From: Verrucomicrobiaceae bacterium
GTDB lineage: Bacteria > Verrucomicrobiota > Verrucomicrobiia > Verrucomicrobiales > Verrucomicrobiaceae
DNA: 52,522 nucleotides
Direction of reading: 5' to 3'
Assembly (NCBI GenBank): GCA_031411715.1
Contig: JANOBP010000515.1
Span: forward strand, 1-52,522
Shown here: piece after piece, positions 27,958 to 52,105 of the stretch
Position numbering within the stretch: the stretch's first letter is position 1
Layout of the letters: each line of letters opens with the position of its first letter
Notes under the pieces: generated by a model
What the model was told of the DNA's origin: nothing
Seen by the model: the letters and a program-made list of their open reading frames with translations, nothing else
The model's database searches: none
Program-made: the position numbers and the translations under genes

Positions 27958-28380
27958 TCAAAACAGCACAGCTGGACTCACGCTGAAATGCGCCGCCAGT
28001 TTGGCGATGTGATCTCTGGTCAGCTCTCGCTCACCACTTAGCAGACGACTGGCCAATGAACGTGTCACATCCAACACGCGCGCCAGTTCAGCTCCCGTCA
28101 TCTCATGCTCCTCGATAAGGTGCTTGAGCGCCTCCAGTCCGGAAACGGACGGTGCCTGTGGCTTTTCATATTCCGTGATCAAAGAACACAGCAGGTCAAA
28201 GTAGTCCTCCTGATCGGCTGTGAGCTTGTGTCCAGCCATAGCATCCGTCATCTCAAGCACTTCGCGGAGTTCCTGACGGTCGTGAATCTGCCGTGGTAGC
28301 AGCATCAGACACAAACCCGTGTAATCAGTTGGCAGCTTATCAAAGCTTAGCTTGTTAGTGTTTTTGGCGATGGTTTTCAT
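27958..28380 (-). CDS. higA: HigA-type HTH antitoxin
   Basis: DYFDLLCSLITEYE, LKHLIEEHEMTGAELA..SLASRLLSGERELTRDHIAKLAAHFSVSP; ATGA overlap with the upstream toxin stop. Confidence 0.88.
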   Translation of the reverse strand: MKTIAKNTNKLSFDKLPTDYTGLCLMLLPRQIHDRQELREVLEMTDAMAGHKLTADQEDYFDLLCSLITEYEKPQAPSVSGLEALKHLIEEHEMTGAELARVLDVTRSLASRLLSGERELTRDHIAKLAAHFSVSPAVLF

Positions 28381-28685
28381 AGCTCGTTCTTCCAGCGGTT
28401 TTTCGAATATTCAGCGTGCGTCAGAAAGCGCAGGATATAGGCGATTTGGCGATTGTAGTGCAGCGCGGTGATAAGGCGGTACTTATTGCCGCTGATGTTG
28501 AAGATGGTCACAGTCCGACCACTTTCGACCGAGACGGCGTCCGCATGGGGGTATGTTTTTCGCGTCGCATGCAGGGACTTCCATTCAGCCAAGCGGACGA
28601 CCTTCCTCCAGCTTTGCAACGCAATCGCTGCATCTGGATGCAGTCTGCCAGCCTCGAGAAGAGCAGTTTCCTTGATGATTCGCAC
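28377..28685 (-). CDS. higB: HigB-type mRNA interferase toxin
   Basis: (M)RIIK..L..HPDA..L.SW..AEW..YPHAD.V..TIFNISGNKYRLI..Y..LTHAEYSK; toxin-first order; GTG start at 28685. Confidence 0.92.
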   Translation of the reverse strand: MRIIKETALLEAGRLHPDAAIALQSWRKVVRLAEWKSLHATRKTYPHADAVSVESGRTVTIFNISGNKYRLITALHYNRQIAYILRFLTHAEYSKNRWKNEL

Positions 28686-28691
28686 GGCCAC

Positions 28692-28720
28692 ACTCTCTGC
28701 TAATGTTGCCAAAAAGTCAA
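28692..28720 (-). promoter_or_regulatory. Possible higBA promoter giving a leaderless mRNA
   Basis: Minus strand TTGACT (28720-28715), 17 nt, GAGAGT (28697-28692), with the GTG start 7 nt downstream; the -10 is weak. Confidence 0.35.
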
Positions 28721-28881: not shown

Positions 28882-31800
28882 ATGCGTGTATTTTCATCAA
28901 TCCTCGCGCTGCTGCTGAGCACCGCTCATCTCCTGGCTCAAGCACCCGTGCCGCCCTTCCTAGTTCCGGCACCAGCGCCAGCGCCGACGCCTGCACCAGT
29001 CCCAGCAGCGCCGAAACCATTGCCGGAGCGTGAGCGCAAGGTTTACATCCCATTCGATGAACTCGAAAAAGTCTTCCAAGACGGCGGCAAGGGTGTCTTC
29101 CTGCCTTATCGCGAATTTCTCGATCTCTGGAATGAACTCACGCTCAAGCGCGAAACCGAGGACAAGCCGCCGCCAGCCGATGCCGTGCTCGCCAAGGCCG
29201 AGTACACCGGCCATGTCGAAGGTGACAGCGTTGTGCTCGATGCCAAGATCACTGCCGAGTCCTTCAAAAAAGGCTGGGCGCTGCTGCCACTCACGGAAAA
29301 GGCCGCGCCTGGCATTGGCGAGGCTTCCACGGGCAAAGCGGTGCTTCGTTCTCGCCCCGATGGCGCGGATTTGATGCTACCGGAGAAAGGCGTCTATGAA
29401 ATCACGCTCAAGATTTACGCGCCCATCATTCGCAGCGCTGGCAAAGCTCACGTCACGCTGAATCTTCCCCGTGCCGCCGTCTCGCGGCTCACGATGGCCA
29501 TTCCCGGTGAAGGCCTCGAGTTCGATCTGCAGCCCGCCGCCGCCTTCACGGCACAAGCTGCGGCAGGTAACACACAGTTCTCCTGTTTCTTCGGTGCTGG
29601 CACGCAGCAAACCATCTCATGGGGTGCCGCGCAGGCCGTCACGCAGATGAATGCGCTCGTCCTCGCGCAAACCAAGCTCAGCACACAAATCGGCGTCGGT
29701 TCCATCGCCACCAAGGCGGACATCGACTTCCGCATCCTCCGTGCGCCGGTTAATGAGTTGAAGATCGCGCTGCCAGCGGATCAAGAAATTCTCGGCGTCA
29801 CTGGCGCAGGCATTAAAGAGTGGAAAATCGACCCCGCAGTCACCGCAGGCCGTAAAACACTCATCGTGCTGCCTGAAAAGCCGCTTCGTGATGATTACTC
29901 ACTGAAGCTCGAACTCGAAGGCCCCGTGGCCAAATTACCCGCTGAGGTCAGCGTGCCGGAAATCGAGATCGTCGGTGCCGCGCAGGTCAATGGCACCGCC
30001 AGCATCGCCGCGGAAGCGCAGCTCGATGTCACGCCAAAAACCCTCACCTCCACCGCACGCTCACTCGCGGGCGATAGCCGCTCTCAAGTCGGCACCTTCC
30101 GCATTTTGCGCCAGCCCTACAAGCTCACGCTCGATGTCGCCGAAGCCAAACCGCAGGTCGAAGCCACCAGCCTGACCAAACTCACTCTGCGACGCGATGT
30201 GGCGACACTCACCGCCGATTTCAATTTCACCGTGCGCCGCGTCGGCATCTTCGAGACACGCCTCACGCCACCCGCAGGTTGGACCATCACCGACGTGAAA
30301 GGCCAGATCGACTCCTGGAGCCTCGAGGGCACGGATGTCGTCATCAAGCTGCCCAAACAAACCGCCGGCGATTTCAAATTCACGCTCACCGCACGTCAGC
30401 CGCGCCCGACGGCCACCGCAGATGTCACGATGCCCGTTTTCACACCGCAAAACGTCACACGGCATGAAGCACTCGTCGGTGCCACGATTCATTCCAGTTT
30501 GGAACCCAACACCAAAGAACTCGGCGACTTCCAGCAGGAAGACGTCAGCACCGTGCAGCTCCAAAGTGAGGCCAACGCCACCGAACTCGCCTTCCGCTAT
30601 CGCGATGCCGCCAAGCCTGCCGTCTTGAGCCTCAAGAGCCGCAACAGCCAAGTCAGCGTCGAAGTGCTCACACTGGTCGAAGTAAAAGAACAAGCCACCA
30701 AGCACACCTGGACGCTCGCCTTTGATGTCGCTTATGCCGCCACGGATCGCTTCGTGCTCGCTGTGCCGAAAACCATCTCCGCAGAAGTGCGTTTCGTCGA
30801 TCCGCAGGTCAAAGAGATCAACAAAGACCACAAGCCCGCCACCGCCGTCGTTCTGCCGGATGCCGTCAATTACGCACTGTGGGAAGTCGTGCTGAGAAGC
30901 GAGCGCCAAGGTGCCTTTGTCCTCAGTGCCAGCTTGGAGCGCCCTGTAGCCATTGAGGCTGGAAAAACCGGTCAAGTCGAGCTGCTGCATGTCCATGTGC
31001 CCGGCGCGTTTCAAGAAACCGGCCAGGTCGCCGTCGTGAAAGCCGACAGCCTCGAAATCCGCAAGTCAGAGCCCGAAACACTCGAAGAAATCGACGCGCG
31101 TGAATTGCGCCGCGAGTTGCAGCGTCCTGGCGTCTTCCTCGCATACAAGTACCGCTCACTTCCGATCAAGCTCGGCGTCGAGCTGGCCAAAAACAGCTTC
31201 ATCCAGGTCCCACGCGCCATCATCACGCACGCCGATCTCACCACCGCGGTTTCCACCGATGATGCGCAGGTCACGGAGGTGATCTATTGGGTCAAAAACA
31301 ACGACCAGCAGTTCCTCGTCGTGCGTTTGCCGAAAGGCGGCAAGCTTAACTCCGACGTCTTCGTCAATCGTGACCCGCAGCAGCCCATGCGCCGCGAAGG
31401 CAGTGACGATTTGCTCGTGCGCCTTCCATCTGGCGATGCCGCACGCACCGCCTTCCCCGTGCGCTTCGTCTTTGAAGTGCCTAGCGCTCACGCTGGTGAA
31501 AAATTCGGCCTTTGGGGCAGTTTTGCCATCCACACGCCACAGGCAGACGAAGTCGGCATCATGGAGACGCGGCATCGCCTCTACCTACCAGAGGCTTGGC
31601 ACTACACGCGCTATGACGGCCCCTTCACAACCGAGTCCACCGACCGTTCCTGGCGTCACATCCGCACAGCGGTGAATTACCTGCTGCCATCTTTCGGCCC
31701 GCAGATCGACCCCAACGAGCAATTCACCACCAACGAGCCACCACAGGTCCAGCAGGACGTGCGTAGCCTCTATGGCTTCAATGTTTCACAAACCGGTCAT

Positions 31801-32256
31801 CTCGAAACCCTCCACCGCCTCGGCCCGCCTGCGCCGACGGATGTCACCTATCGCGGCAAGAAGCTCACCTTCTTCTACCAAGCCGCTGCCTTCTTGATCA
31901 CGCTGCTGCTCGGCCTGCGTTGCTGGCAGCGCGGTGCGCGTGAAAAGCTGCTCTACCTCGCGCTCGTCGGCCTTGGCTCCATGCTGCTCACCGGCCTGCT
32001 CAGCGCCGCCAATGTGCCCATCGCGCAGTCCATCATGCTCGGCGTCGGTTTGAGCCTCGGCGCGTGGTTCGCGCTCGGCTTCCTCAGCCTTGGCAAAGCC
32101 TTCGCCAAGCGCAAACCCGCGCTTCCACCACCACCGCCGCCCACCCCAGAGCCACCTGCGCCGCCACCGCCGTCCACACGCGGTAAAAAATCCGCCCCTC
32201 CGCCAACACCCACCGTTCCCGAGATTCCCGCCGAAGAAACCCAACCGGAGAAGTGA
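28882..32256 (+). CDS. Giant exported, membrane-anchored beta-rich protein A of a three-paralog operon (function unknown)
   Basis: Signal peptide MRVFSSILALLLSTAHLLA; Pro-rich linker; about 950 aa beta-rich body; three C-terminal hydrophobic helices and a Pro-rich tail; shares motifs with the next two genes. Confidence 0.9.
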   Translation: MRVFSSILALLLSTAHLLAQAPVPPFLVPAPAPAPTPAPVPAAPKPLPERERKVYIPFDELEKVFQDGGKGVFLPYREFLDLWNELTLKRETEDKPPPADAVLAKAEYTGHVEGDSVVLDAKITAESFKKGWALLPLTEKAAPGIGEASTGKAVLRSRPDGADLMLPEKGVYEITLKIYAPIIRSAGKAHVTLNLPRAAVSRLTMAIPGEGLEFDLQPAAAFTAQAAAGNTQFSCFFGAGTQQTISWGAAQAVTQMNALVLAQTKLSTQIGVGSIATKADIDFRILRAPVNELKIALPADQEILGVTGAGIKEWKIDPAVTAGRKTLIVLPEKPLRDDYSLKLELEGPVAKLPAEVSVPEIEIVGAAQVNGTASIAAEAQLDVTPKTLTSTARSLAGDSRSQVGTFRILRQPYKLTLDVAEAKPQVEATSLTKLTLRRDVATLTADFNFTVRRVGIFETRLTPPAGWTITDVKGQIDSWSLEGTDVVIKLPKQTAGDFKFTLTARQPRPTATADVTMPVFTPQNVTRHEALVGATIHSSLEPNTKELGDFQQEDVSTVQLQSEANATELAFRYRDAAKPAVLSLKSRNSQVSVEVLTLVEVKEQATKHTWTLAFDVAYAATDRFVLAVPKTISAEVRFVDPQVKEINKDHKPATAVVLPDAVNYALWEVVLRSERQGAFVLSASLERPVAIEAGKTGQVELLHVHVPGAFQETGQVAVVKADSLEIRKSEPETLEEIDARELRRELQRPGVFLAYKYRSLPIKLGVELAKNSFIQVPRAIITHADLTTAVSTDDAQVTEVIYWVKNNDQQFLVVRLPKGGKLNSDVFVNRDPQQPMRREGSDDLLVRLPSGDAARTAFPVRFVFEVPSAHAGEKFGLWGSFAIHTPQADEVGIMETRHRLYLPEAWHYTRYDGPFTTESTDRSWRHIRTAVNYLLPSFGPQIDPNEQFTTNEPPQVQQDVRSLYGFNVSQTGHLETLHRLGPPAPTDVTYRGKKLTFFYQAAAFLITLLLGLRCWQRGAREKLLYLALVGLGSMLLTGLLSAANVPIAQSIMLGVGLSLGAWFALGFLSLGKAFAKRKPALPPPPPPTPEPPAPPPPSTRGKKSAPPPTPTVPEIPAEETQPEK

Positions 32257-32257
32257 G

Positions 32258-35200
32258 ATGAAACCGCCTCCCATGGAGAGCCGACGACTCGTCGGCATAT
32301 CCCACCTCAACATGGCATGTCGGCGCATTGCCGCCGCATTCGTCATTCTACATTCGTCATTCGTCATTGCCGCTGACGCACCGGCAAATCCCACGCGCAC
32401 TGAACTCTGGGTCCCCACCAAGCAGCTCGACCTCATCCTCCAAAAACACCCGAAGGCCGTGCTGCTCAACCGTCAGCAATACGAGACACTCATCCGCGAC
32501 GCCGCGAAGACCAAGCCCGTCGAGGATCCCAAGCTCGCCGCGCCGAAAGAACTCATCATCGAGGGCCTCAAACTCCGTGGCAAAGCAGCGCCGGGTGCCA
32601 CCAGCATCACACTCACCGGCGAGCTCACGCTCAACGTGCCTGCGGATTCCTGGAGCCAAAAAGTGATCGAGTGGCCATTCCATCTCGACATCTCGGAGGT
32701 CACCAGCGACGGCACCATCCTCGCGTGGCTCACCAATGAAGTGTTCACTGCTTCAAACATCCCTGCAGAGACCATGCGCCGCCTGAACATCGCTGCGCGC
32801 GGCCCGGGCCGCCGTGTGCTGCGCTTCACCAGCATTTTGCCGCTCTACTACCGACTGCGCAGTGGCGAGCGCGGCCTGGATCTCCAATACACCGGCTGCG
32901 GTGGCCAGATCGAGCTGGAGCTCCCGCCTGGAGCCGCGCTCCTGCCCGGCTCCGCCGCCACGCATGAAGGCCAGCGTGTCACCGCCGCCTTTGACCACCG
33001 CTTCATCCGCCGCAGCGACAATGGAGACCCTCTCACCTCTATCCCACCTGATAAACGCACCTCGGGCTCCGTGCTCATGGACGCCTGCCGCATTCGCTGG
33101 ATCGAATCCCCCGGCACACTGCCACAGGATGCGCTGCGCTTTGAAAACAGCGGCAGCGCACGCTTCAGCATCTCCGACTCCTCGGTCTTCACGCATTTGC
33201 AATTTCTGACCCACGTCCGCCAGAGCACCACAGGTCAGTATGAAGCCATCTGGCCCATCCTAGGCACAGACAACACTCAAGTCACCGATGTCACGGGTCC
33301 TGATGTGCTCAAGTGGGAGCAGCATGGCCAAAAACTCCACGTCACCTTGCAGCAGTCATCCTCACTCGCCCCCGTGGATGTGCAGATGAGTCAAAGCCTC
33401 ACGCTCGATGCCGCATCCAGCGTCACGCTGCCCTCGCTCAGCGTTCCGGTGCTGCTTCCAGCATCCTACACCATCGGCGAAGGCCTCGACATCCTCTCCC
33501 TCGACACCACCAACGACAACTTCATCCGCCTCGACCGCGAGCCACCTCAACTCAAGCTCCGCATCGCCAAGCCACGCATCGAGACCGATGTCGATGTCCT
33601 CGCGCGCATCGACAAAGACAGTGTGCAGATCGAGCGCAAGCTGATGCTACGCAGTGATCGCCCCGCCACCGAGCTCAAGATCACCTTGCCTGCTGGTGAG
33701 GAGTTCATTGCCATTTTGTCGAAGCCGGTGGGTTCTGAGCAACAGATGACCACCTCCAACGCGGTGACTTTGACGCCCAACACTGCCGCCGTGGTCACAC
33801 CGAACAACATCAGCCAGCCCATCTTCTCCGACCGAGTGATCACCTCGAATGTCGTCAACAATGCCACAGGCAGCGCATCACCCTTCCGCCTCACATGGCG
33901 TCGCGTCGGCCAGACGATCTCGATTCTGCCCTCGCAGCCGATTTCACCTGCCAACTCGCTCGAATTCAGCATCACCTCGCGCCTGAAGCTCGCCAAGGCT
34001 TGGAATGGCCCGCGCAATCCAGAAACCGTCACCATTCGTCATCTCGACATCCCGGACGCGGTCAAAGTCGCTGGCTACACCGCGCTCGACTTCGATGATG
34101 CCTGGCGCGTCGCTTTGAAAGCCACCACCGGCTTGGAAGACCGCGATGCACGCCTCACTCCGGTGAAGGGCCGCATGGCGTGGTTTGGCCTGCGGGAGCA
34201 TGGGCTGAGTTTTGAAGTCGAGCGCGCTGAGGCTGTCTTCTCGACCGAAGTCATCGCGTATGCCTTGCCACGCGCCCGCACCATCGAGATCGAAGGTCAG
34301 TTCGCGCTCGACATCAGCGGCGCACCGCTGCGCAGCTTTCAGGTCAAGCTGCCCATCGATGCGGCCAAACTCCTCCGCGTGACTTCACCACTCATTGGCG
34401 AGCAGCAACTCGATGAAAAAACCGGCATCTGGACCCTCACGCTCCGCCAGGAAAGCAAAGGCCACCAAAACATCCGCTTCCGCCTCAGCCTGCCTGCTTC
34501 ATCCAACAGCACGCCGGCCACCGACACACCGACCACCGTCGCACCGATCACTGCCACCCTCCCACGCATCGAGTTGCCTCAATCCCGCCGCTTCGCCGGC
34601 ACCTGGGTCATCGAGGCCAACACCGACACGCAGCTCAGCACGCAGGCGCAGTCCATGCAGCCGCTGGATGTCCTGCGCGCACCCGCCATGGCCGACTACC
34701 AGCCACGCCACCGCATTACCAGCGCCTTCACATATGGAGCCACTGAGCACGCCCTCACCATCACCGCGCGCCGCCACGCCCATAGCGAGCTCGCCGCGCT
34801 CGTCGTCACGCAGATGCAACTCCGCAGCGTCCTCGATGCCGACGGCCACAGCCTCCACGAGGCCCACCTCACGCTCACCCATTCCGGCGAGCAATTCATC
34901 GCCCTCACCCTCCCACCCGCCGCCGAGTTGCTCAGCACCCTCGCCAATCACCAGGCCGTGAAACCCGTTCGTAGCGTCGGCGACGCCATCGCCATCCCGC
35001 TCCCCGCCGGCAGCGCCAACGAGCCAGACACCACCGTCACCATCCAGTATCGCCTCACCACCGCACCTTGGAACTCGCACGGAGAACTCGCCCTCACGCC
35101 CATCACCCTCGCCCCCAACATCCCCATCCTCACCACCGACTGGCAAGTCCACACCCCACCCAAATTCGGCTATGACAAGGTCAAGACCACGCTGGAGCAG

Positions 35201-36535
35201 GATTTTAACTTCCCAGTTCCTGGATTTATGGAACTCGATAAATTTTGGGAAATTAAAGACTGGATTCACAGCATCAAAACCAGTGGGGCAGCAGATCCAG
35301 CAAATCCTGAGTTTGCCCCCGATGAAGCGCGCCACCTCTTGGCCTACGAACAGCGGCGCACCAAGATGCTGGCTCAAGTGGATGAGCAGTGGGAGGAAAA
35401 AGCCCCGACCAATGTCACTCAGGCAGCTCCAGCGTCCACTTCCAGCCGCAGTGCCGGAGCCTATATCACCGAGAAGATGGACAAGATCATCTTCCCAACG
35501 GTGTTGTTCCAAAACGCCACCGTTGATGAGGCGATCGAATTCATCCGCATTAAATCGAAGGATCTAGACACCTCCGAATCAGATCCAACTCGCAAAGGCA
35601 TTAGTGTCATTCTTCGCTCTGGCGACGCTCCGGCCTCAGCCAAGATTTCACTCGATCTAAAAGACGTTCCAATGAGCGAAGCACTCCGCTACATCTGCGA
35701 CCTCGCGCAAATGAAGTACAAGGTGGAGTCATATGCCGTGGTCATCTCTCCAATCACTGAAAACAACAACGAGATGTTCACGCGCAGCTACAAAATGGCG
35801 CCAGATGCCCTGGCCAGATTGGCGGAAGACAAAGACAGCGGTGTAGCGGCAGTGGACCCATTTGCATCAAAATTACCAGTTTCAGGCGATGCTAAAAAGA
35901 AAGCCCAGCCCTCCGCTCGCGACCTTTTGATCGAACAAGGCATCTCTTTCCCCGAAGGAGCCACCGCCTCTTACGATGCGGCCACTTCAACCATCGTCGT
36001 GCGCAACACGGCTGCAAATTTAGACCTGACGGAATCCCTGGTGGAAGAAGGTGATAAGAAGGCTTTCAAAAAGAGCACTTCAAAATCCAAAGGCGGTCGT
36101 CTCTACGCATCCGACGATGAAATGCTCTTCGACGACCTAGCCGCCAAATCCGGCCTCATCCCGCTGGATGTCACCATGCCGGTAACAGGCCGCATGCTGC
36201 GCTTTCATGGGCATCAGGCACCGGAGCCGTTGGTGCTGCAATATCGCTCATGGGAGCATCAGATGGCCTGGGCGGTGCTGGCGATGCTGGTGGGCATGCT
36301 GGCCTTTGCTCGCTTCGCGTGGCGACGACCTTGGGTCATGACGCTGCTTGTGCTGGTCCTTGCCGCGTGGGGTTTCCCGCTTGTTTTCGAAGGACAAGCC
36401 CTCGCCTACCTCAACGCCGCCACCTTTGGCTGGCTTTGCGCCCTCACCCTGTGCGTGCTGCTCAGCGTGATGCGCTACGGCACCTCTCTCCGCCAAAAAT
36501 ACGCACCCTCAACGATGCAGGAGGCAACGGCATGA
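32258..36535 (+). CDS. Giant exported, membrane-anchored protein B of the operon, with embedded secretin N-terminal (STN/N-domain-like) region
   Basis: ATG 1 nt after the A stop (alternative ATG 32312); signal-like RRIAAAFVILHSSFVIA; insert KMDKIIFPTVLFQNATVDEAIEFIR...ISLDLKDVPMSEALRYI...GISFPEGATASY..STIVVRNTAANLDL; three C-terminal TM helices. Confidence 0.88.
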   Translation: MKPPPMESRRLVGISHLNMACRRIAAAFVILHSSFVIAADAPANPTRTELWVPTKQLDLILQKHPKAVLLNRQQYETLIRDAAKTKPVEDPKLAAPKELIIEGLKLRGKAAPGATSITLTGELTLNVPADSWSQKVIEWPFHLDISEVTSDGTILAWLTNEVFTASNIPAETMRRLNIAARGPGRRVLRFTSILPLYYRLRSGERGLDLQYTGCGGQIELELPPGAALLPGSAATHEGQRVTAAFDHRFIRRSDNGDPLTSIPPDKRTSGSVLMDACRIRWIESPGTLPQDALRFENSGSARFSISDSSVFTHLQFLTHVRQSTTGQYEAIWPILGTDNTQVTDVTGPDVLKWEQHGQKLHVTLQQSSSLAPVDVQMSQSLTLDAASSVTLPSLSVPVLLPASYTIGEGLDILSLDTTNDNFIRLDREPPQLKLRIAKPRIETDVDVLARIDKDSVQIERKLMLRSDRPATELKITLPAGEEFIAILSKPVGSEQQMTTSNAVTLTPNTAAVVTPNNISQPIFSDRVITSNVVNNATGSASPFRLTWRRVGQTISILPSQPISPANSLEFSITSRLKLAKAWNGPRNPETVTIRHLDIPDAVKVAGYTALDFDDAWRVALKATTGLEDRDARLTPVKGRMAWFGLREHGLSFEVERAEAVFSTEVIAYALPRARTIEIEGQFALDISGAPLRSFQVKLPIDAAKLLRVTSPLIGEQQLDEKTGIWTLTLRQESKGHQNIRFRLSLPASSNSTPATDTPTTVAPITATLPRIELPQSRRFAGTWVIEANTDTQLSTQAQSMQPLDVLRAPAMADYQPRHRITSAFTYGATEHALTITARRHAHSELAALVVTQMQLRSVLDADGHSLHEAHLTLTHSGEQFIALTLPPAAELLSTLANHQAVKPVRSVGDAIAIPLPAGSANEPDTTVTIQYRLTTAPWNSHGELALTPITLAPNIPILTTDWQVHTPPKFGYDKVKTTLEQDFNFPVPGFMELDKFWEIKDWIHSIKTSGAADPANPEFAPDEARHLLAYEQRRTKMLAQVDEQWEEKAPTNVTQAAPASTSSRSAGAYITEKMDKIIFPTVLFQNATVDEAIEFIRIKSKDLDTSESDPTRKGISVILRSGDAPASAKISLDLKDVPMSEALRYICDLAQMKYKVESYAVVISPITENNNEMFTRSYKMAPDALARLAEDKDSGVAAVDPFASKLPVSGDAKKKAQPSARDLLIEQGISFPEGATASYDAATSTIVVRNTAANLDLTESLVEEGDKKAFKKSTSKSKGGRLYASDDEMLFDDLAAKSGLIPLDVTMPVTGRMLRFHGHQAPEPLVLQYRSWEHQMAWAVLAMLVGMLAFARFAWRRPWVMTLLVLVLAAWGFPLVFEGQALAYLNAATFGWLCALTLCVLLSVMRYGTSLRQKYAPSTMQEATA
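32280..32296. repeat. Perfect palindrome at the A/B junction
   Basis: GCCGACGA-C-TCGTCGGC. Confidence 0.7.
32337..32368 (+). repeat. CATTCGT heptamer tandem repeat encoding the signal peptide core of protein B
   Basis: CATTCGT CATTCTA CATTCGT CATTCGT CATT. Confidence 0.85.
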
Positions 36536-39500
36536 ACCCAAATCCTTCTCTTCCTCCCTTTGCACGTCTCACCGCTCTCGTTTCAAGGAGTAGGAGTCTG
36601 ATTGCAGCGGCATTCGTCATTCTGAATTCGTCATTCGTCATGGCACAGCAGCAGCCCGATCCCGCCGCGCACACCGTCATCATTCCCTACACCGGCTCTC
36701 CGCTACACCAGACGCCCACACGCTTCTATCTCGGCTACGATGAATTCCAGCGCCTCTGGTCGCTGGCCAAAGAGAACCGCAAACCTGCCGTTACCAAGGC
36801 CGAGGATACCGCGCTGGTTATTCATCAGTCGCTTTACGATGCAACCATCGAGGAGCGTGGTCTCGTCATCAACGCACGCATCACCGCCGTCACGCGTGGG
36901 CATTGGAGCAAGCTCGCGCTGCCCTTCATCCGTATTGAGAACGGCAAGGATCGCGACGGCGCGCTCGTCGGCGAGGTCAATGTGAATGGCAAAGCCGCTG
37001 CGCTGACGGATGGCTACATCACCTTGGAAAATCCTGGCACGCACAGCATCGCCCTCACGGCCACGTTGCCACTGCCACCCAGTTGGACTTCGCTGAAGCT
37101 CCGCCTTCCTTCAGCCATGGCCGGTGTGTTGGCTCTGCATACACCGAAGTCGGACGGCTGGCCACGCATCAACGACACCGCCGCTCTCACCGTCGAAGAA
37201 AAACCCGACGCACGCCTCTTCACCCACGCGCTGGGACTTCACAGTGAGCTGCAGCTCACGCGCACCACGCGCGGCCTTGATCGCGGCGAAGGCCCCGTGC
37301 CCGCCGCACGCGTGGAGGCCACGTTGAGCCTGCAAGACATGCAGTTGCCCACTTTGGACGCCACGCTGCACTACGACTTCCCTGGAGCCACCCGCCGCAC
37401 GCTGAGCTTCAGCATTGATCCCGAGCAGGTTAATCTCGACTTCATCAAGGTGACTTCAGGCGACAAGCATGTGCCGATGGATCGCATCGAAACTGAGCTC
37501 GAGCCCAAACGCGTCGTCTTCAAGCTGCACCTCCGCCACGAGATCAGCGGCAGCGCCCGCATTGAGCTATCCGGGTTCGGAATTTCGCTCGGAGTCCCGC
37601 TAGGAGTCCCGCCTTCAGGCGGTAGAGCTCCCGCAGGCACTCAGGCCACCGCACCAGCTAACAATGCCTCTCCGGCTAAAGCCGGTACTCCGAACGGTAC
37701 CCCGAGCACCTTCCGCGCACCTTTGCCCGAAGCCGTGCGCATCACCCAAAAGCTCACGCTTCAGCATGACGCCGCCACGCAGCTCACACCGCAGCCGGAT
37801 GCCAATCAACAGCGCATCGCCGCCGATGCGCTCACCTTCCAGAGCAATGGCACGGCTCCGCTGCGATTCCTCATCAAAGCCACGCCTCAATTTGAAAGCG
37901 CCGATGCCAACTACGTCTTCCAGTTGAGCGAGCAAAAGGCCGAACTCCTCGCCGCGCTCGCGCTCAAACGTAAACGCGGCCTGTGGACGCGTGCGGAGAT
38001 CGGTTTGCCGGATGGATACGATGTGCAGATCGTGCAAGGCCCTGCCGTCATCGCCTGGCAGCATGAGGGCCGCAGTGTGTATGTGCATTTCAATCCGCAG
38101 ATCGCCGGGCAGGAGGCGCGCATCGTCGTCCACCTCGTGCGCACTCTCGCGCAGCCCGCCACCACGTGGCAGCTCACGCCACTCACGCTCAGCGGCTATG
38201 AAAAACTCACCGGCCGCGCTCTCATCGTCGCGCATGCCGCCACGGACGTGAAACTGCCCGACTTTGCTCAGCGTAGCGACATCAAGGAACTCGATGCCAC
38301 CGCTCTCGACAGCGTCTTCGCCATCGCACCGCCATTGGAGAAAAAACGCGCGCTCAAGCTCGAAGGCGGCACCTGGAGCACACAGGTCACGCTCGCACGC
38401 CAGCCCGCGCGCTTTGCCGCGGATGCCATCGCGCTCGTGCTCGCCTCTGATGCTGGCATCCGCCTCTCACAGCAGCTTGCCATCCATGTCGAGCAGGGCG
38501 CGCTGCGTCAGATCAGCCTGCGCCTGCCCGCAGCATTGCCTGAGGCCGTCGTCACCGGTCCGCTGCTGCGTGAGATGCGCACCCGCATCGAAAACAACGA
38601 GCGCATCTACGACTGCTCCTTCCAAACCGACGTGCTCGACCAAGCCGCGCTCACCTTTGATCTCGATCTGCCCATCAGCGCCACGCTCGACGTGCCCTTC
38701 GTCAAACTTCCCGATGCAGGCCGCCTCACACGCTGGTTCGTGCTCGACAATGCTTCCGCCCGCGAGGCCACCATCACCACGCAGACCGCATTGGAGGCCG
38801 TCACGCGCGATGCGCTGCCGTATTTGCCCGCAGGCCTCTCCAGACCTCAATTCTTCCGCGCCACCCAAGACGGCACGCTCACGCTCGCCTACCAGCAACT
38901 CACCAGCACGGAAGGAAACGCTGCACTCATCACCCTCGCCGATCTCACCACCATCCTCCGCGCCGATGGCCAGCGCTGGGACATCGCGCAGTATTCGCTT
39001 ATCAACCGCTCACTTCAGTTCCTGCCCGTCATTTTACCACAAGGAGCCGAACTCATCACCGTCAGCGTCTCCGGCCAGCCCGTGCGTGCGGATGAAGAAA
39101 CACAAAACGGCAAGCGCACACGCCTGATCCCGCTCATCCACACCAAACCCGGCCAGCGGGCACTTGAAGTGAAGTTGATCTATCGTTTTGCCAAATCCGA
39201 CCTCAACAATTCCAAGCTCGACGATCCCGAGCTTCCTGGACTCAGCGTCGAGCGCACCACCTGGACCGTCTGGACCCCCAACGGCCACCAACTCGCTAAC
39301 CACGACGGCAACATGGAAGAAGTCGGCAAAGAAGGCCGCGAGCTCCAACAACTCGAAGGCATGCTCAGCGAACTCGGCGAAGCCAACCGCACCCTCGCCC
39401 GCGGCGACCTCGACGGCGACAGCGCGAAGCAAGCCTATGATCAAGCGAAGGAACTCACGCAGAAAGTGCGCGACAAAAAGCAGGAGACCCTCTCCAGCAT

Positions 39501-41007
39501 CGTCTCCAACGGCCTCACAAGGCTCATGAGTGGCCGCTACGAACAAAAAAGTTTGTCTGACTTCGCAGGTGGCGGCGAGTACATGGCCAATCCTCAAACA
39601 GACCAGATGGACTATGAAGTCGCCCAACAAGGCAAGCTCCTCGAAGACAACTATAAGCGCTACGCTGGCAAAGACGCCCAACAAAACCTCGGGAAGTCCA
39701 AAGCCGATGCCAACACCACTTGGAACTCCAACAAGACCGGTGACGGCACTCTGAAGCTCCAAGGAGCAAACACCTTCAGCGGTGGAGTGGCCGTGAATGG
39801 CGGCCAGCTCTTCAACGACAACGTCGCCGTCGATAACACCTACTTCGCCAACCAAGGCACGACTCGAATCGGCATTTCTGGCCCTGTCGCAGGAAAGCCA
39901 GACACGGAGATCCGCCGCGAAGTCAACGTGGCTCCTGGTTCTGCAAACCTGCCGCCACAGATCCCGCAAGGCACAGGCAATATGGATCTTGGCAGCGCAA
40001 GCACTCTGACTGTGAATGGTGGAGTGAATAGCACGGGCATCAATCAAGGAATCACCATCGGCTCGCTTACCAGCGGCTGGCGCGCTGGCAGCGTCACAAT
40101 CAACAACACGGCCGTTGATGACGCGCTCATCACAAGCGTTCCGAATGTCGTCGCTCAAACCAATGGCGACGCGCCCCTCACACCGCAATTGAACATATCT
40201 TCAGGAGGTCAGCTCGACATATCAGGCCGTGAACTCTCAGCAATTGCTGGCAGCGGGATCTCCTCCACCTCTGGCAATACTTATGCTGGAGCCAACATCA
40301 CCACTTTCGGTTCCGCCGGATCTCCCCCACCTGCACCTCAAGTACAGTTGAGTGGAGGCAGTCTCAGTTTTTCCAACTCAGCAAGCCTCACAAAATCAGG
40401 CGGCGGCACCCTCGTCCTCTCTGGCAATACAGCCGCTGGAGGCATCAACACCCCCCAAATGACTCAACAAGGTCAGCTCAACATCAATGGCAGCACCATC
40501 AACTCCAACGCTCGCGGTAACAACCTCAGCCAAGTCGATGCACCTGCGGAAAGAGATGGCAGAACACAATCAGGAATGCAGATCGCAGCGGGCGCACCCA
40601 TCAAAGCTTCGTCAGGCGGGCGTGCTAACTACGCCGCCGCCGATCCTTTCTCCTCCACCCCAATGCCCGCATCTCAACCTGCAGTCGCAGCCCTAAAAGC
40701 AGAGCCCATCTCGGACGAACGTCAGCCCGCCGCCAAACCCGCCAGCGCCGCCCCCATTCAGCAATCCGCAATCCAAAATCCGCAATTCCTGAAGCCCACC
40801 GGTCGCCATGCGCTCGAAATCGCGCTCCCCACCGAAGGCGTTGCGCATCACTTCTCCAAGCTCAAAGACCACGCCGTCCTCGAGATCACACTCAAGTCCC
40901 TCAGCAAGCCACAAACCACTTCCCGCGCGATCTACCTCACCCTCGGCCTTCTCGCCTGCTTCGGAGCTTGGCGTTGGAGCACCAAGCGCCAGGCACGGCC
41001 TGCGTGA
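36532..41007 (+). CDS. Giant exported, membrane-anchored protein C of the operon, with autotransporter-associated beta-strand (PATR-like) repeats
   Basis: ATGA overlap with the B stop and CAGGAGG upstream; signal-like SLIAAAFVILNSSFVMA; NKTGDGTLKLQGANTFSGGVAVNGG and LTKSGGGTLVLSGN; one C-terminal TM helix followed by a basic tail. Confidence 0.9.
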   Translation: MNPNPSLPPFARLTALVSRSRSLIAAAFVILNSSFVMAQQQPDPAAHTVIIPYTGSPLHQTPTRFYLGYDEFQRLWSLAKENRKPAVTKAEDTALVIHQSLYDATIEERGLVINARITAVTRGHWSKLALPFIRIENGKDRDGALVGEVNVNGKAAALTDGYITLENPGTHSIALTATLPLPPSWTSLKLRLPSAMAGVLALHTPKSDGWPRINDTAALTVEEKPDARLFTHALGLHSELQLTRTTRGLDRGEGPVPAARVEATLSLQDMQLPTLDATLHYDFPGATRRTLSFSIDPEQVNLDFIKVTSGDKHVPMDRIETELEPKRVVFKLHLRHEISGSARIELSGFGISLGVPLGVPPSGGRAPAGTQATAPANNASPAKAGTPNGTPSTFRAPLPEAVRITQKLTLQHDAATQLTPQPDANQQRIAADALTFQSNGTAPLRFLIKATPQFESADANYVFQLSEQKAELLAALALKRKRGLWTRAEIGLPDGYDVQIVQGPAVIAWQHEGRSVYVHFNPQIAGQEARIVVHLVRTLAQPATTWQLTPLTLSGYEKLTGRALIVAHAATDVKLPDFAQRSDIKELDATALDSVFAIAPPLEKKRALKLEGGTWSTQVTLARQPARFAADAIALVLASDAGIRLSQQLAIHVEQGALRQISLRLPAALPEAVVTGPLLREMRTRIENNERIYDCSFQTDVLDQAALTFDLDLPISATLDVPFVKLPDAGRLTRWFVLDNASAREATITTQTALEAVTRDALPYLPAGLSRPQFFRATQDGTLTLAYQQLTSTEGNAALITLADLTTILRADGQRWDIAQYSLINRSLQFLPVILPQGAELITVSVSGQPVRADEETQNGKRTRLIPLIHTKPGQRALEVKLIYRFAKSDLNNSKLDDPELPGLSVERTTWTVWTPNGHQLANHDGNMEEVGKEGRELQQLEGMLSELGEANRTLARGDLDGDSAKQAYDQAKELTQKVRDKKQETLSSIVSNGLTRLMSGRYEQKSLSDFAGGGEYMANPQTDQMDYEVAQQGKLLEDNYKRYAGKDAQQNLGKSKADANTTWNSNKTGDGTLKLQGANTFSGGVAVNGGQLFNDNVAVDNTYFANQGTTRIGISGPVAGKPDTEIRREVNVAPGSANLPPQIPQGTGNMDLGSASTLTVNGGVNSTGINQGITIGSLTSGWRAGSVTINNTAVDDALITSVPNVVAQTNGDAPLTPQLNISSGGQLDISGRELSAIAGSGISSTSGNTYAGANITTFGSAGSPPPAPQVQLSGGSLSFSNSASLTKSGGGTLVLSGNTAAGGINTPQMTQQGQLNINGSTINSNARGNNLSQVDAPAERDGRTQSGMQIAAGAPIKASSGGRANYAAADPFSSTPMPASQPAVAALKAEPISDERQPAAKPASAAPIQQSAIQNPQFLKPTGRHALEIALPTEGVAHHFSKLKDHAVLEITLKSLSKPQTTSRAIYLTLGLLACFGAWRWSTKRQARPA
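36611..36641 (+). repeat. CATTCGT heptamer tandem repeat encoding the signal peptide core of protein C
   Basis: CATTCGT CATTCTG AATTCGT CATTCGT CAT. Confidence 0.85.
37587..37707. repeat. REP-like inverted pair lying in frame within gene C
   Basis: GGAGTCCCGCCTTCAGGCGG (37603-37622) and CCGGCTAAAGCCGGTACTCC (37672-37691) match at 16/20 as an inverted pair, each with an internal palindrome; partial extra copies on both flanks. Confidence 0.75.
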
Positions 41008-41098: not shown

Positions 41099-41116
41099 TC
41101 ATCCATTCGTCATTCG

Positions 41117-42403
41117 TCATTTCTTCCGATCCATCATCACCGCGCCCAGAATCACCAGGCCTAGCACGATGTTCTGCGTGTTGCTCTCCACATTGGTGAG
41201 ATTCATCCCGTTCTGAATCACCGCGATGACAAACGCACCGATTAGCGTGCCCCACATCGTCCCGCGTCCGCCGCTCAAGCTCGTCCCGCCCACCACCGCC
41301 GCTGCGATGGCGAAGAGTTCATACTTCGCACCGAAGGTGCCCGAGCCGCTCTTGAGCTGCGAGGCCATCACCACGCCGCCCAGGCCTGCCAGCAGGCCAC
41401 ACATCGCATACGCCATCACCGTCACGCGGCGCACGGGCACTCCCGAGATCAGCGCCGCCTCGACATTGCCCCCCACGGCATACAAATGCCGTCCAAGCCG
41501 CATGCGCGTCATGATCACATGCGCCACGGCATACAGCAGTACCATCAGCACCGCAGAATTGGGCACCTTCAGCACATCCGCGCCGCGCCCCAGCCACACA
41601 AACGACTCCGGCACCTGCGACACGCTTTGATTGTCCGCCAGCCGATATGCCAGGCCGCTGCAGACCAGCATCATCGCCAGCGTCACGATGAACGGCGGCA
41701 TGCGCATCCAGGTAATCAAGCCACCTGACATCAATCCACACACGCCGCACACACCCATCCCGCATAGCGACGCCAACACCATTTGCAGCGCATCCGCTTT
41801 CTCGCCGCCGAACTGATCGCGAATCACCAGCGTCGTCACCACCGCCGAAAGCGCTAGCAAACTGCCCACACTCAAGTCGATGCCACCCGAGATGATCACC
41901 ATCGTCATCCCTATGGCCAAAATCGCTATCACCGCGATCTGCCCGGTAATGTTCAGCAGATTTTCTTGAGTCAAAAACACCGGCCACACACGCCCCTGCG
42001 GCTTCAGCACCTTCGTGTCCTTCAGCGCCGGAAAATCCGTCGCCAAATCCTCAAAGATCAGCCATCCCGCCGTCACCTGCGTGCCCACGATGAAATCCAG
42101 CCCACCACTCGCTGCAGCGCGTGTCAGTGCCGCACGCGCATCCCGCGGCTCGCCCTTCACGCTCTCCACCACACGCGCACCGAGCTCCTTTTTCAGTGCC
42201 GCCTCAAACACCGCATCCTCCGCCTGTGCCCGCACCGCGATCATCACACGCGCCTTTTCACCCATCTGCGCCGCCAATTCCCGCGCCGCCGCCGCATCCT
42301 GCGGAAACTGCTCCGTGCGTGTCACCACACTGAAAAATCCGCACAGCAACAAAAGCACCAGCAGCATACTGGATTGGGCAAGGTGATGGCGAACAAAGCT
42401 CAT
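41117..42403 (-). CDS. Sugar ABC transporter permease (RbsC-like) with an extra extracytoplasmic domain
   Basis: NLLNI..IAVIAILAIGMTMVIISGGIDLSVGS, PPFIVTLAM, LGRHLYAVGGNVEAALISGV, YELFAIAAAVVGGTSLSGGRG; start set at ATG 42403 because the longer track ORF overlaps the divergent gene. Confidence 0.92.
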   Translation of the reverse strand: MSFVRHHLAQSSMLLVLLLLCGFFSVVTRTEQFPQDAAAARELAAQMGEKARVMIAVRAQAEDAVFEAALKKELGARVVESVKGEPRDARAALTRAAASGGLDFIVGTQVTAGWLIFEDLATDFPALKDTKVLKPQGRVWPVFLTQENLLNITGQIAVIAILAIGMTMVIISGGIDLSVGSLLALSAVVTTLVIRDQFGGEKADALQMVLASLCGMGVCGVCGLMSGGLITWMRMPPFIVTLAMMLVCSGLAYRLADNQSVSQVPESFVWLGRGADVLKVPNSAVLMVLLYAVAHVIMTRMRLGRHLYAVGGNVEAALISGVPVRRVTVMAYAMCGLLAGLGGVVMASQLKSGSGTFGAKYELFAIAAAVVGGTSLSGGRGTMWGTLIGAFVIAVIQNGMNLTNVESNTQNIVLGLVILGAVMMDRKK

Positions 42404-51344: not shown

Positions 51345-51581
51345 ATGGAACGCACTATCATCAGCACGGAGGAACTCCTCCACACCAACCCTAAACTCAA
51401 AGTATTGTGGGAGAAGGACCATCAAATCCGCTTGAAGCAGCCCTTGCGCACCTCCGAGGAGGCTATGGCGCAAGCCCTGGAACAAAAGAGAGTGGCTGGT
51501 TTACGCGCCTCGAGTTTGAGGAGCATGAACTCCTCAACTGGGCCCGCGAGTCTGGCATCCTTGGTGGCGAGCATGAGCTGA
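51345..51581 (+). CDS. Small hypothetical ORF overlapping the kinase gene in another frame
   Basis: ATG at 51345; helical-looking MERTIISTEELL...PLRTSEEAMAQALEQKR; overlaps the next ORF by 175 nt. Confidence 0.4.
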   Translation: MERTIISTEELLHTNPKLKVLWEKDHQIRLKQPLRTSEEAMAQALEQKRVAGLRASSLRSMNSSTGPASLASLVASMS

Positions 51582-52105
51582 TGCCGGTTACAGATGCCGA
51601 CGGTCAGGAGCATCGTGTCCGATTTGATGATTCGAGCGGCAGGTGGTTCAAAGCAACGCACCCAGAGACCTACGGCGGCGCGCCTCAGATCAGTTACGAT
51701 CTTGATCCGGTGACGGATCGCCCGGCGCAGCGGCTGGTGATGGGCAAAGGCACGCCGATGCAATACCTGGAGCGCTGGAGTCTCTTCAACGCGGTGTTTG
51801 GTGACGAAGTGCGGCTGGAGCGTGTGCTGGCAGTGGGTTACGGCCTGTCGATCCTGATTTCGCAGCGTGACATCACGGGCGATGCGCCGGAGCTGCGCGA
51901 GATCGAGGATTTTTTCCGACAGCGTGGATTCGAGCCAGTTCCGTCTTCTCAAGATGCTTTTTACCGGGCAACGGATGATGTGCTGGCGCTGGACGCGCAT
52001 CAGGCCAATCTCGTGCGCACGGCCGATGGCTTGGTGCCCATCGACATCCCGGTGTTTCGACCGGATACCGACATCGCCAAATGGCTGCGGCGGGTGGGTT
52101 TGTGA
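51407..52105 (+). CDS. Putative polyvalent-protein-type kinase domain (Kinase-PolyVal-like)
   Basis: GQEHRV..WFK, TPMQYLERW.LFN.VFGD, ILISQ..ITG, EI..FF..RGF, DAHQANL...VPID; GTG start, with an in-frame TAA at 51392 blocking extension. Confidence 0.75.
   Translation: MGEGPSNPLEAALAHLRGGYGASPGTKESGWFTRLEFEEHELLNWARESGILGGEHELMPVTDADGQEHRVRFDDSSGRWFKATHPETYGGAPQISYDLDPVTDRPAQRLVMGKGTPMQYLERWSLFNAVFGDEVRLERVLAVGYGLSILISQRDITGDAPELREIEDFFRQRGFEPVPSSQDAFYRATDDVLALDAHQANLVRTADGLVPIDIPVFRPDTDIAKWLRRVGL

What the first reader, a model, noticed from the sequence alone, without database searches (positions are those of the whole stretch)
28882..41007. Candidate undescribed envelope system: three coupled giant paralogs with a shared scaffold and a swappable payload slot
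Seen: three ORFs (1124, ~1425, 1491 aa) joined by a 1-nt gap and an ATGA overlap, each with a signal peptide, a beta-rich body and C-terminal TM helices. N-termini align (A VYIPF..VFLPYREFLDLW; B LWVPT..VLLNRQQYETLI; C VIIPY..FYLGYDEFQRLW). Late domains align (A ADLTTAVSTD..QFLVVRLPKGGKL..HRLYLP; B MQLRSVLDADG..QFIALTLPPAAEL..WQVHTP; C ADLTTILRADG..QFLPVILPQGAEL..WTVWTP). A closing motif precedes the membrane anchor (A YGFNVSQTG; B GLIPLDVTMPVTG; C GRHALEIALPTEG). Between the last two motifs A has ~60 aa, B ~330 aa with secretin N-domains, and C ~500 aa with a helical segment and autotransporter-type repeats. No catalytic motif was recognised. Inference: a heterotrimeric membrane-anchored periplasmic or surface scaffold that displays domains captured from other secretion systems at one permissive loop.
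Basis: partly seen in the sequence, partly recalled or inferred. Interest (0 to 1): 0.85.

Follow-up and report, generated by a model that had tools for sequence, protein, structure and literature searches.

The report
Membrane scaffold that captures pilus parts
Three adjacent, related giant membrane-protein genes of an unnamed family likely build a three-part scaffold in the space between the two bacterial membranes, and one loop of it carries copies of the cell's own pilus-machine parts, here a piece that most resembles the same genome's pilus pore protein, which would let the scaffold dock on that machine.

Summary
A (1124 aa), B (1425) and C (1491) are homologous over about 800 aligned columns (HHalign 99.8-100%). 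The order A-B-C is kept in all 21 loci long enough to show it, with B-C fused in 7. Each module is predicted to have five beta-sandwich domains of the ribophorin I / M1-aminopeptidase N-domain fold. The 'slot' is a loop inside the last, membrane-proximal domain. In B it holds N-terminal domains of the genome's own PilQ-like secretin. In a tree these copies interleave with secretins of their own lineage (at least 10 label changes) and show purifying selection. Other lineages hold pilin domains there. A trimer of the N-terminal parts got weak support (0.38 vs controls 0.00). No family model, solved relative or paper was found for the scaffold. Function is not shown: docking at the pilus machinery is my best inference; a tolerant insertion site in an envelope-stress scaffold is the main rival.

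The parts
28882..32256 (+). Gene A, 1124 aa: signal peptide, Pro-rich linker, N-terminal hub motif, five beta-sandwich domains, short slot, three TM helices, Pro-rich tail
29035..29160 (+). A hub motif (residues 52-93), present in the modules of three-module systems; candidate trimerisation site
29173..31857 (+). A ectodomain D1-D5 (residues 98-992), ribophorin I / M1 aminopeptidase N-domain fold
31624..31776 (+). A slot (about residues 915-965), short, with one amphipathic helix; loop inside D5
31858..32109 (+). A three predicted TM helices (residues 993-1076)
32258..36535 (+). Gene B, 1425 aa, same scaffold; fused to C in many relatives
32337..32368 (+). Short genome-wide DNA repeat inside B's signal region (a second copy near 36611 in C)
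35183..36151 (+). B slot (residues 976-1298), inserted in D5
35342..36091 (+). Captured secretin fragment in the B slot (residues 1029-1278: helix, N0/STN domain, ring-type N-domain); 59-65% identical to the genome's own Amuc_1098-family secretin at G000:C545:1003-3705
36251..36499 (+). B three predicted TM helices (residues 1332-1414)
36532..41007 (+). Gene C, 1491 aa, same scaffold, one C-terminal hydrophobic anchor
39307..40800 (+). C slot (residues 926-1423): conserved helical start, then a G/S/N/T-rich stretch with a PATR repeat (39733-39810) and a low-complexity tail
40927..40977 (+). C C-terminal hydrophobic segment (residues 1466-1482), likely single TM anchor
   Evidence: sequence; homologous fusions

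Best explanation
A, B and C are three homologous modules of an unnamed protein family that likely assemble into an inner-membrane-anchored, periplasmic, non-enzymatic heterotrimer, and B carries in a loop next to the membrane a copy of the N-terminal domains of the cell's own pilus secretin, which would let the complex dock on the type IV pilus machinery. Shown: the three genes, their homology, their linkage, B-C fusion in relatives, the secretin origin of the insert, its grouping with secretins of its own lineage, and purifying selection on it. Predicted: five ribophorin-I-like beta-sandwich domains per module and the slot inside domain 5. Inferred: export by signal peptides and anchoring by the C-terminal helices (3+3+1; in fusions a fourth helix after B returns C to the periplasm); joining of the three chains through their N-terminal hub motifs; and use of the captured N0/N-domains (pilin domains in other lineages) as a self-matching handle that binds what the real secretin or pilin binds. 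The likely job is envelope upkeep at pilus sites, judged from the regulators next to related forms.
For: Homology A/B/C 99.8-100%. Of 33 genome loci, 24 extend beyond A and all 24 have B next; all 21 that reach C have it, 14 separate and 7 fused to B. In 61 family genomes 25 have the locus, each with at least two modules, and 36 have no match at E 1e-20. A + B-C also occurs outside the family (L036, L037, L050, L060) and in 8 of 11 metagenome loci found with P0210, the other 3 starting inside the fusion. Hub motif: found in A, B and C types with subtype-specific forms and in 0 of 15 two-module proteins that have no A beside them. Complex of the three N-terminal parts: weak support, 0.38 vs best of 3 controls 0.00 (also 0.00 with B replaced); runs share at least 45% of contacts; partner pLDDT at least 68; this mark was reached by 116 of 157 solved complexes and 2 of 215 mismatches, but at 0.60 or under by only 18 of the 157 and by both mismatches. 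D5 aligns as one domain around the slot (ERAP1 3qnf Z 13.4, rmsd 3.2, 158 aligned, model range 191-674) and the insert matches secretin N-domains (EscC 3gr5 Z 9.9, PilQ N0 4ar0 Z 8.6, rmsd 2.1). Of 17 B-slot units from 12 genomes, the own-genome secretin ranks first of 25 genomes for 11, second for 5, fifth for 1. The tree needs 13 slot/secretin label changes, at least 10 forced by starred branches (18 units, one later dropped). Slot vs own secretin: dN 0.18-0.50 with dS 1.2 to saturated; 1099 of 1353 conserved positions kept vs 399 of 860 variable ones. Type IV filament parts recur in other lineages: DUF1559 pilin in P0210 and P0245, GspG in P0161 (E 9e-31) and secretin N-region in P0169 and P0236, a pilin-like helix after a TM segment in 25 of 37 hub-less two-module slots, near-duplicates included. 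Context of relatives: 13 of 17 hub-less loci follow a YfbK/vWA anti-sigma gene, 11 with an ECF sigma before it; the short form precedes a creD-like gene in 7 of 10 divergent creD-like loci, creBC-like genes usually adjacent.
Against: No binding, localisation or phenotype was measured. The secretin is in 25 of 25 family genomes but the locus in only 25 of 61, so pili do not need it. Four family members have B slots of 95-264 aa without a full secretin unit (L145-L148), and many type I fusions outside the family have slots with no Pfam hit. The same secretin unit turns up elsewhere: in a YfbK linker (L051), inside D4 of P0156, at the end of an unrelated protein (L136), and in several other proteins of this genome, and PATR occurs in 7 of 42 A proteins, so these domains are promiscuous. 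No slot is a recent DNA copy of its secretin (synonymous sites near saturation), so repeated capture cannot be told apart from protein-level co-evolution with these data. Slot branches are longer than secretin branches. No pilus gene was seen among the neighbours of the type I loci that I listed or scanned (the output was partly cut). The link to envelope stress comes from types II and III, not from this operon.
Confidence: 0.5

Rival explanations
1. The three proteins are a structural envelope-maintenance or stress-sensing scaffold, and the slot is only a tolerant loop that collects the most common mobile domains of each lineage; the inserts must fold but do no specific job.
For: Slots of 95-264 aa without a full unit; the unit also sits in unrelated proteins and other linkers; PATR in A, TPR in C slots; long slot branches; in a close relative (run X3, about 95% identical over the scaffold) the slots are replaced or diverged, but so are two low-complexity loops outside them; ECF/anti-sigma and creD contexts of relatives. 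That DUF1559 pilins and PATR are much expanded in these phyla is recalled, not tested.
Against: Whole domains kept under purifying selection for long enough to saturate synonymous sites; units in 23 of the 24 family-type B slots in loci L002-L033 and L049 (L033 is cut by its contig end) with 1-3 copies; separate lineages hold type IV filament parts at the same loop.
Confidence: 0.33
2. The complex is a non-catalytic accessory of a membrane enzyme or translocon, as ribophorin I is for the oligosaccharyltransferase; it holds or presents exported proteins for modification or folding.
For: Ribophorin I/Ost1 is the top fold match for A (6s7o_E Z 13.2, 307 aligned, rmsd 17.9) and for B's D4-D5-TM part (Z 14.7, 327 aligned, rmsd 21.8; Foldseek E 1e-13, next unrelated entry 1e-6): two tandem domains before a TM helix.
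Against: STT3/PglB found in 2 of 61 family genomes, neither of which has the locus, and in 0 of the 25 that do (the search rang in 4 archaeal controls). No sequence-level match to any PDB chain. The high rmsd shows that the two domains are arranged differently. M1 aminopeptidase N-domains match single domains nearly as well (Z 11-13).
Confidence: 0.1
3. The proteins are surface adhesins or a surface layer whose variable slot is an antigenic or receptor-binding tip.
For: Chains of beta-sandwich domains resemble adhesin stalks at low scores (PrgB, integrin legs); slot variation between close relatives.
Against: Multi-helix C-terminal anchors, B-C fusions with four helices between modules and TM hairpins inside many slots point to the inner membrane; the slot is in the domain next to the anchor, not at the far end; no beta-barrel, lipoprotein or sorting-signal family hit.
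Confidence: 0.05

Closest known systems
Ribophorin I (RPN1/Ost1), non-catalytic subunit of the eukaryotic oligosaccharyltransferase
   Same: Tandem beta-sandwich domains of the M1-aminopeptidase N-domain fold before a TM anchor; top fold match for both models.
   Different: Five domains per module instead of two, three paralogous modules, an insertion loop, no sequence-level match, no STT3 in genomes with the locus.
M1 aminopeptidase N-terminal domain and VIT domain (ERAP1, LTA4H, APN; inter-alpha-inhibitor heavy chain)
   Same: Single-domain fold match, Z 11-13, rmsd 3-4 A over about 150 residues; ITIH1 Z 8.7-9.3.
   Different: No peptidase or vWA domain in A, B or C; the fold is repeated as a stalk.
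Amuc_1098 family (PilQ-like type IV pilus secretin of Verrucomicrobia; outer-membrane location shown in Akkermansia, PMC4960237, passages read)
   Same: B residues 1029-1269 match model positions 209-459 (E 2.5e-74); the genome's own full member scores 1006 bits.
   Different: B has 251 bits vs a cut-off of 750, lacks the secretin barrel and is anchored by TM helices; it is a recipient of a fragment, not a secretin.
ECF sigma / zinc-finger anti-sigma with DUF3520 (YfbK) + vWA (ECF289 context in PMC7826278, passage read) and the creD-creBC locus (PMC4689548, abstract read)
   Same: Two-module and short relatives of the scaffold are encoded right after YfbK or right before creD-like genes.
   Different: The window's three-gene form has neither beside it; the passages and abstract I read do not mention this family; ECF group membership was not tested.

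Membership tests
Ribophorin I / OST complex | Tandem M1-N-like lumenal domains before a TM helix | tested here: met
   (fold only; predicted models; rmsd 18-22 A over two domains)
Ribophorin I / OST complex | Sequence match to Ribophorin_I (PF04597) or to solved RPN1 chains | tested here: inconclusive
   No hit in Pfam scans or PDB profile search; the genome search with PF04597 rang nowhere, controls included
Ribophorin I / OST complex | Catalytic STT3/AglB/PglB partner in the genome | tested here: not met
   Not found in the 25 genomes with the locus, own genome (89.8% complete) included; rang in 4 archaeal controls
M1 aminopeptidases | Catalytic zinc domain with HEXXH motif | tested here: not met
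   No peptidase family hit; no conserved His/Glu set; no such domain in the model of A
Amuc_1098 / PilQ secretins | Full-length match above cut-off with C-terminal secretin domain | tested here: not met
   B: 250.8 bits vs 750, model positions 209-459 only; no PF00263 hit
Amuc_1098 / PilQ secretins | N0 (STN) and ring-type N-domain | tested here: met
Type V autotransporters | C-terminal autotransporter beta-barrel | tested here: not met
   C has a PATR repeat but no PF03797 hit; the same scan type detects one in L045
CreD (PF06123) | Homology of D5 plus TM region to CreD | tested here: inconclusive
   HHalign 7-29% to divergent CreD-like proteins, 4% or less to canonical CreD for D5
Type IV pilus accessory complex | Physical contact with pilus machinery or a piliation phenotype | not testable with these tools
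   needs experiment

The most novel reading that the evidence does not exclude
An undescribed periplasmic heterotrimer of ribophorin-I-like repeat proteins in PVC bacteria that keeps re-acquiring pieces of the cell's own type IV pilus genes (secretin N-domains in Verrucomicrobiaceae, pilins elsewhere) in one loop and uses them as a self-matched handle to join, chaperone or gate the pilus machine.
Probability: 0.35. Interest if true: 0.88.

Novelty: categorically new. Interest (0 to 1): 0.72.

Why it matters
The family is large (6,954 clusters at 50% identity with E up to 0.001, 2,154 up to 1e-30) yet has no Pfam or NCBIfam model, no solved relative and no paper in my searches. It would add a new envelope complex to a bacterial group with unusual cell envelopes and give a bacterial structural counterpart of ribophorin I that works without an STT3. 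If the insert is functional, it is a case of a host protein repeatedly copying a domain of its own secretion machine to stay matched to it. A named Verrucomicrobium spinosum homologue (WP_157211025.1) lies in a species with transposon and knockout tools (PMC12283558, passages read), so the idea can be tested now.

Tried and rejected
Pfam/NCBIfam: no scaffold family. PDB by sequence: nothing, best E 0.011 and 0.11 in low-complexity or TM stretches. Atlas: the window protein could not be searched; a homologue gave 30 unnamed clusters, and the nearest named one (LysM, Myxococcota, 0.82-0.84) is a lead only. Plasmids and viral contigs: no match. Earlier findings: nothing. Literature: nine searches listed no paper on this family; I saw listings and abstract starts, not whole texts, and most subscription papers are not held. 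Essentiality: the V. spinosum transposon table (PMC12283558, mmc6 part 1 of 38) gives locus tags only, the two accessions were not found in 10 supplements, and mmc5 was too large to read, so this stays open. Expression: no RNA holder listed. Promoter scan upstream of A: none. CreD as a D5 homologue: inconclusive. OST accessory role: STT3 not found with the locus. Recent DNA-level conversion from the secretin: not seen; laying run X3 on the secretin gene showed no long second copy among the pieces listed. B/C signal-peptide likeness as paralogy: rejected, it is a DNA repeat. One 'slot' locus (L136) lacked the scaffold motifs and was dropped from the rank counts, but it is in the tree; L139 gave no unit over 120 aa and is not among the 18. 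The post-slot motif was missed in many divergent modules, which are left out of slot lengths. Range outside Verrucomicrobiota and Planctomycetota could not be surveyed by genome.
Full report
Observation. The window comes from a Verrucomicrobiaceae-type genome, judged by the names of the closest homologues. A (28882-32256, 1124 aa), B (32258-36535, 1425 aa) and C (36532-41007, 1491 aa) are joined by a 1-base gap and an ATGA overlap, and all quoted motifs are present. Pairwise BLASTP gives E 3e-5 to 8e-11 at about 20% identity. Profiles align end to end over the ectodomain: A/B 100% (E 3e-52), A/C 100% (2e-57), B/C 99.8% (2e-29). The scaffold has no Pfam or NCBIfam hit; the only hits are a secretin N-region in B and one PATR repeat in C.

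Anatomy. The model of A (mean pLDDT 81.7, pTM 0.44, so the domain order in space is unsure) shows a helical hub at 52-93, five beta-sandwich domains (98-250, 258-421, 424-586, 590-770, 779-992) and three TM helices. D2-D4 are repeats of each other (99.6-99.8%); D1 and D5 are more distant (up to 91%, one pair 2%); reversed controls score 2.4% or less. The best fold matches are ribophorin I/Ost1 (Z 13.2) and M1-aminopeptidase N-domains (Z 11-12, rmsd 3-4 A). A model of B 656-1415 (pLDDT 78.3) aligns D5 as one domain that opens before the slot and closes after it, and places secretin-type N0 and N-domains inside. The slot is therefore a loop in the domain next to the membrane anchor.

Linkage. 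Of 33 genome loci, 9 end in or at A; the other 24 all have B next, and all 21 that reach C have it, 7 as a B-C fusion of 2,800-3,280 aa with extra hydrophobic helices between the modules. Among 61 family genomes, 25 have the locus and 36 have no match; these are 'not found in those searched'. A phylum sample gave 44 of 301 genomes with a strict first look, a floor. The profile finds 6,954 clusters; named members are Verrucomicrobiota (including Limisphaerales, Kiritimatiellia) and Planctomycetota. Flanking genes of the three-module form vary in the loci I listed.

Three forms. Type I (this window): A + B + C or A + B-C, modules with the hub motif (missed by the short profile in L050 and in the second module of L036 and L037, found there with the longer one). 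Type II: a two-module fusion with no A beside it and no hub in 15 of 15 scored loci; 13 of 17 follow a YfbK/vWA gene, several with a zinc-finger anti-sigma domain, 11 with an ECF sigma upstream; 3 do not, 1 is cut. Type III: a 380-580 aa protein with D1-, D2- and D5-like domains (97.7%, 90.7%, 98.3%), no slot and no C-terminal anchor, upstream of a creD-like gene in 7 of 10 divergent creD-like loci (L057-L059, L092-L098), including this genome (G000:C432). CreD loss damages envelope integrity in Stenotrophomonas (PMC4689548, abstract only).

Trimer. The hub has A-, B- and C-specific forms across distant members. Folding the three hub+D1 parts gave weak support: 0.38 against 0.00 for three controls, contacts agreeing at 45% or more, partner pLDDT 68 or more; in calibration 116 of 157 solved complexes and 2 of 215 mismatches reached the mark, but at 0.60 or under only 18 of the 157 and both mismatches, and this three-chain job differs from the calibration. 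With the fusions and the all-or-none presence, a complex is likely but not shown.

The slot. Where both flanking motifs were found, slots are 28-93 aa in single-module proteins from the A-profile searches, 68-880 aa in first or B modules and 85-about 500 aa in second or C modules. In family-type loci 23 of 24 B slots hold 1-3 secretin units, some with TPRs; four further members hold none in full. C slots hold PATR in 10 of 18 scanned family-type slots besides the window's, and TPR in one. Planctomycete-like members have a TM hairpin followed by a DUF1559 pilin, P0161 a GspG pseudopilin, P0169 and P0236 secretin N-regions, and 25 of 37 hub-less first slots a pilin-like helix (pattern match, near-duplicates included). 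A contig in run X3, about 95% identical over the scaffold, has 143 bases of the B slot replaced by 395, 264 more diverged at equal length, and much of the C slot unaligned; two low-complexity loops outside the slots also differ.

Origin of B's insert. It is 65% identical to this genome's own secretin and at most 54% to any other match in 24 relatives. In a tree of 18 'slot' and 30 secretin units, slots do not form one group: 13 changes, at least 10 forced; one row (L136) proved not to be a B slot. Of the other 17, own-genome secretin ranks first for 11, second for 5, fifth for 1. Synonymous sites are near saturation (dS 1.2 or more) while dN is 0.18-0.50, as between secretins of different genera. 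So the captures are old, at about genus level, and the domain has been conserved since; 81% of conserved positions are kept vs 46% of variable ones. Between related B genes the unit has dN/dS 0.15-0.34 and higher dS than the scaffold in 11 of 12 non-independent pairs. Repeated capture is the simplest reading; co-evolution at protein level is not excluded. The same unit is also found in unrelated proteins, which favours the tolerant-loop rival.

Mechanism. Most likely (0.5) an inner-membrane heterotrimer whose beta-sandwich stalks form a periplasmic scaffold and whose B loop presents a self-matched pilus part. That secretin N0 domains bind inner-membrane platform proteins is established for GspC-GspD (entry 3oss, listed) and recalled for PilP-PilQ; that B's copy does so is inference. 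Rivals: envelope scaffold with a tolerant loop (0.33), ribophorin-like enzyme accessory (0.10; STT3 in 0 of 25 genomes with the locus), surface adhesin (0.05).

Known and new. It shares a fold with ribophorin I and M1 N-domains and a fragment with Amuc_1098 secretins (PMC4960237, passages), but fails a defining test for each family. Nine literature searches and three look-ups of earlier findings gave no description. One review passage states that BLASTP found no prokaryotic sequence similar to the non-catalytic OST subunits (PMC4973528); Asgard ribophorin papers were seen as listings only. An unreadable supplement (mmc5 of PMC12283558) may hold the essentiality data. Verdict: a real, conserved, apparently undescribed system; function open; interest 0.72.

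Noticed in passing
G000:C432 (L098:155-4706, minus strand): Short homologue of the scaffold (379 aa) followed by a divergent creD-like gene and a creB/creC-like pair; same order in 6 other loci, one with an MSEP-CTERM VIT-domain gene next to it (L096).
   Followed up: partly
L039, L041-L044, L046-L048, L051-L054, L061: Two-module relatives follow an ECF sigma and a YfbK/vWA anti-sigma gene, which stands where A stands in the three-gene form.
   Followed up: partly
L164:3473-11611 and L167:4052-12472: The pilin captured in the slot still has a prepilin-peptidase-like site (small residue, then F-T-L-x-E) in the middle of a 2,700-aa protein; five other distinct loci have it degenerate.
   Followed up: no
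window 32337-32368, about 36611-36640 and about 41105-41122: A short repeat (10-base core, 78 copies in the genome vs 7.4 expected) lies inside the coding signal regions of B and C and after C; many metagenome contigs pile up on it.
   Followed up: partly
L136; G000:C427:15580-16620, C107:2724-5429, C614:2596-5214, C513:7695-9050, C763:2552-3166: Other proteins carrying secretin N0 or N-domain copies, one (L136) 76% identical to its own genome's secretin; copying from the secretin gene may be a general habit of these genomes.
   Followed up: partly
L148:4875-8468: Its short B slot seems to hold about 20 residues resembling the secretin's barrel region rather than the N-domains (by eye).
   Followed up: no
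window 27958-28712 (minus strand): HigB-like toxin and HTH antitoxin pair, divergent from gene A.
   Followed up: no
window 1822-6000 and 6915-13046: Two large secreted-type metallopeptidases: M11/M12-like with Calx-beta and DUF5122 repeats (1392 aa), and astacin with Ig-like repeats (2043 aa).
   Followed up: no
window 51407-52105: ORF with a Kinase-PolyVal hit (E 3.6e-6).
   Followed up: no
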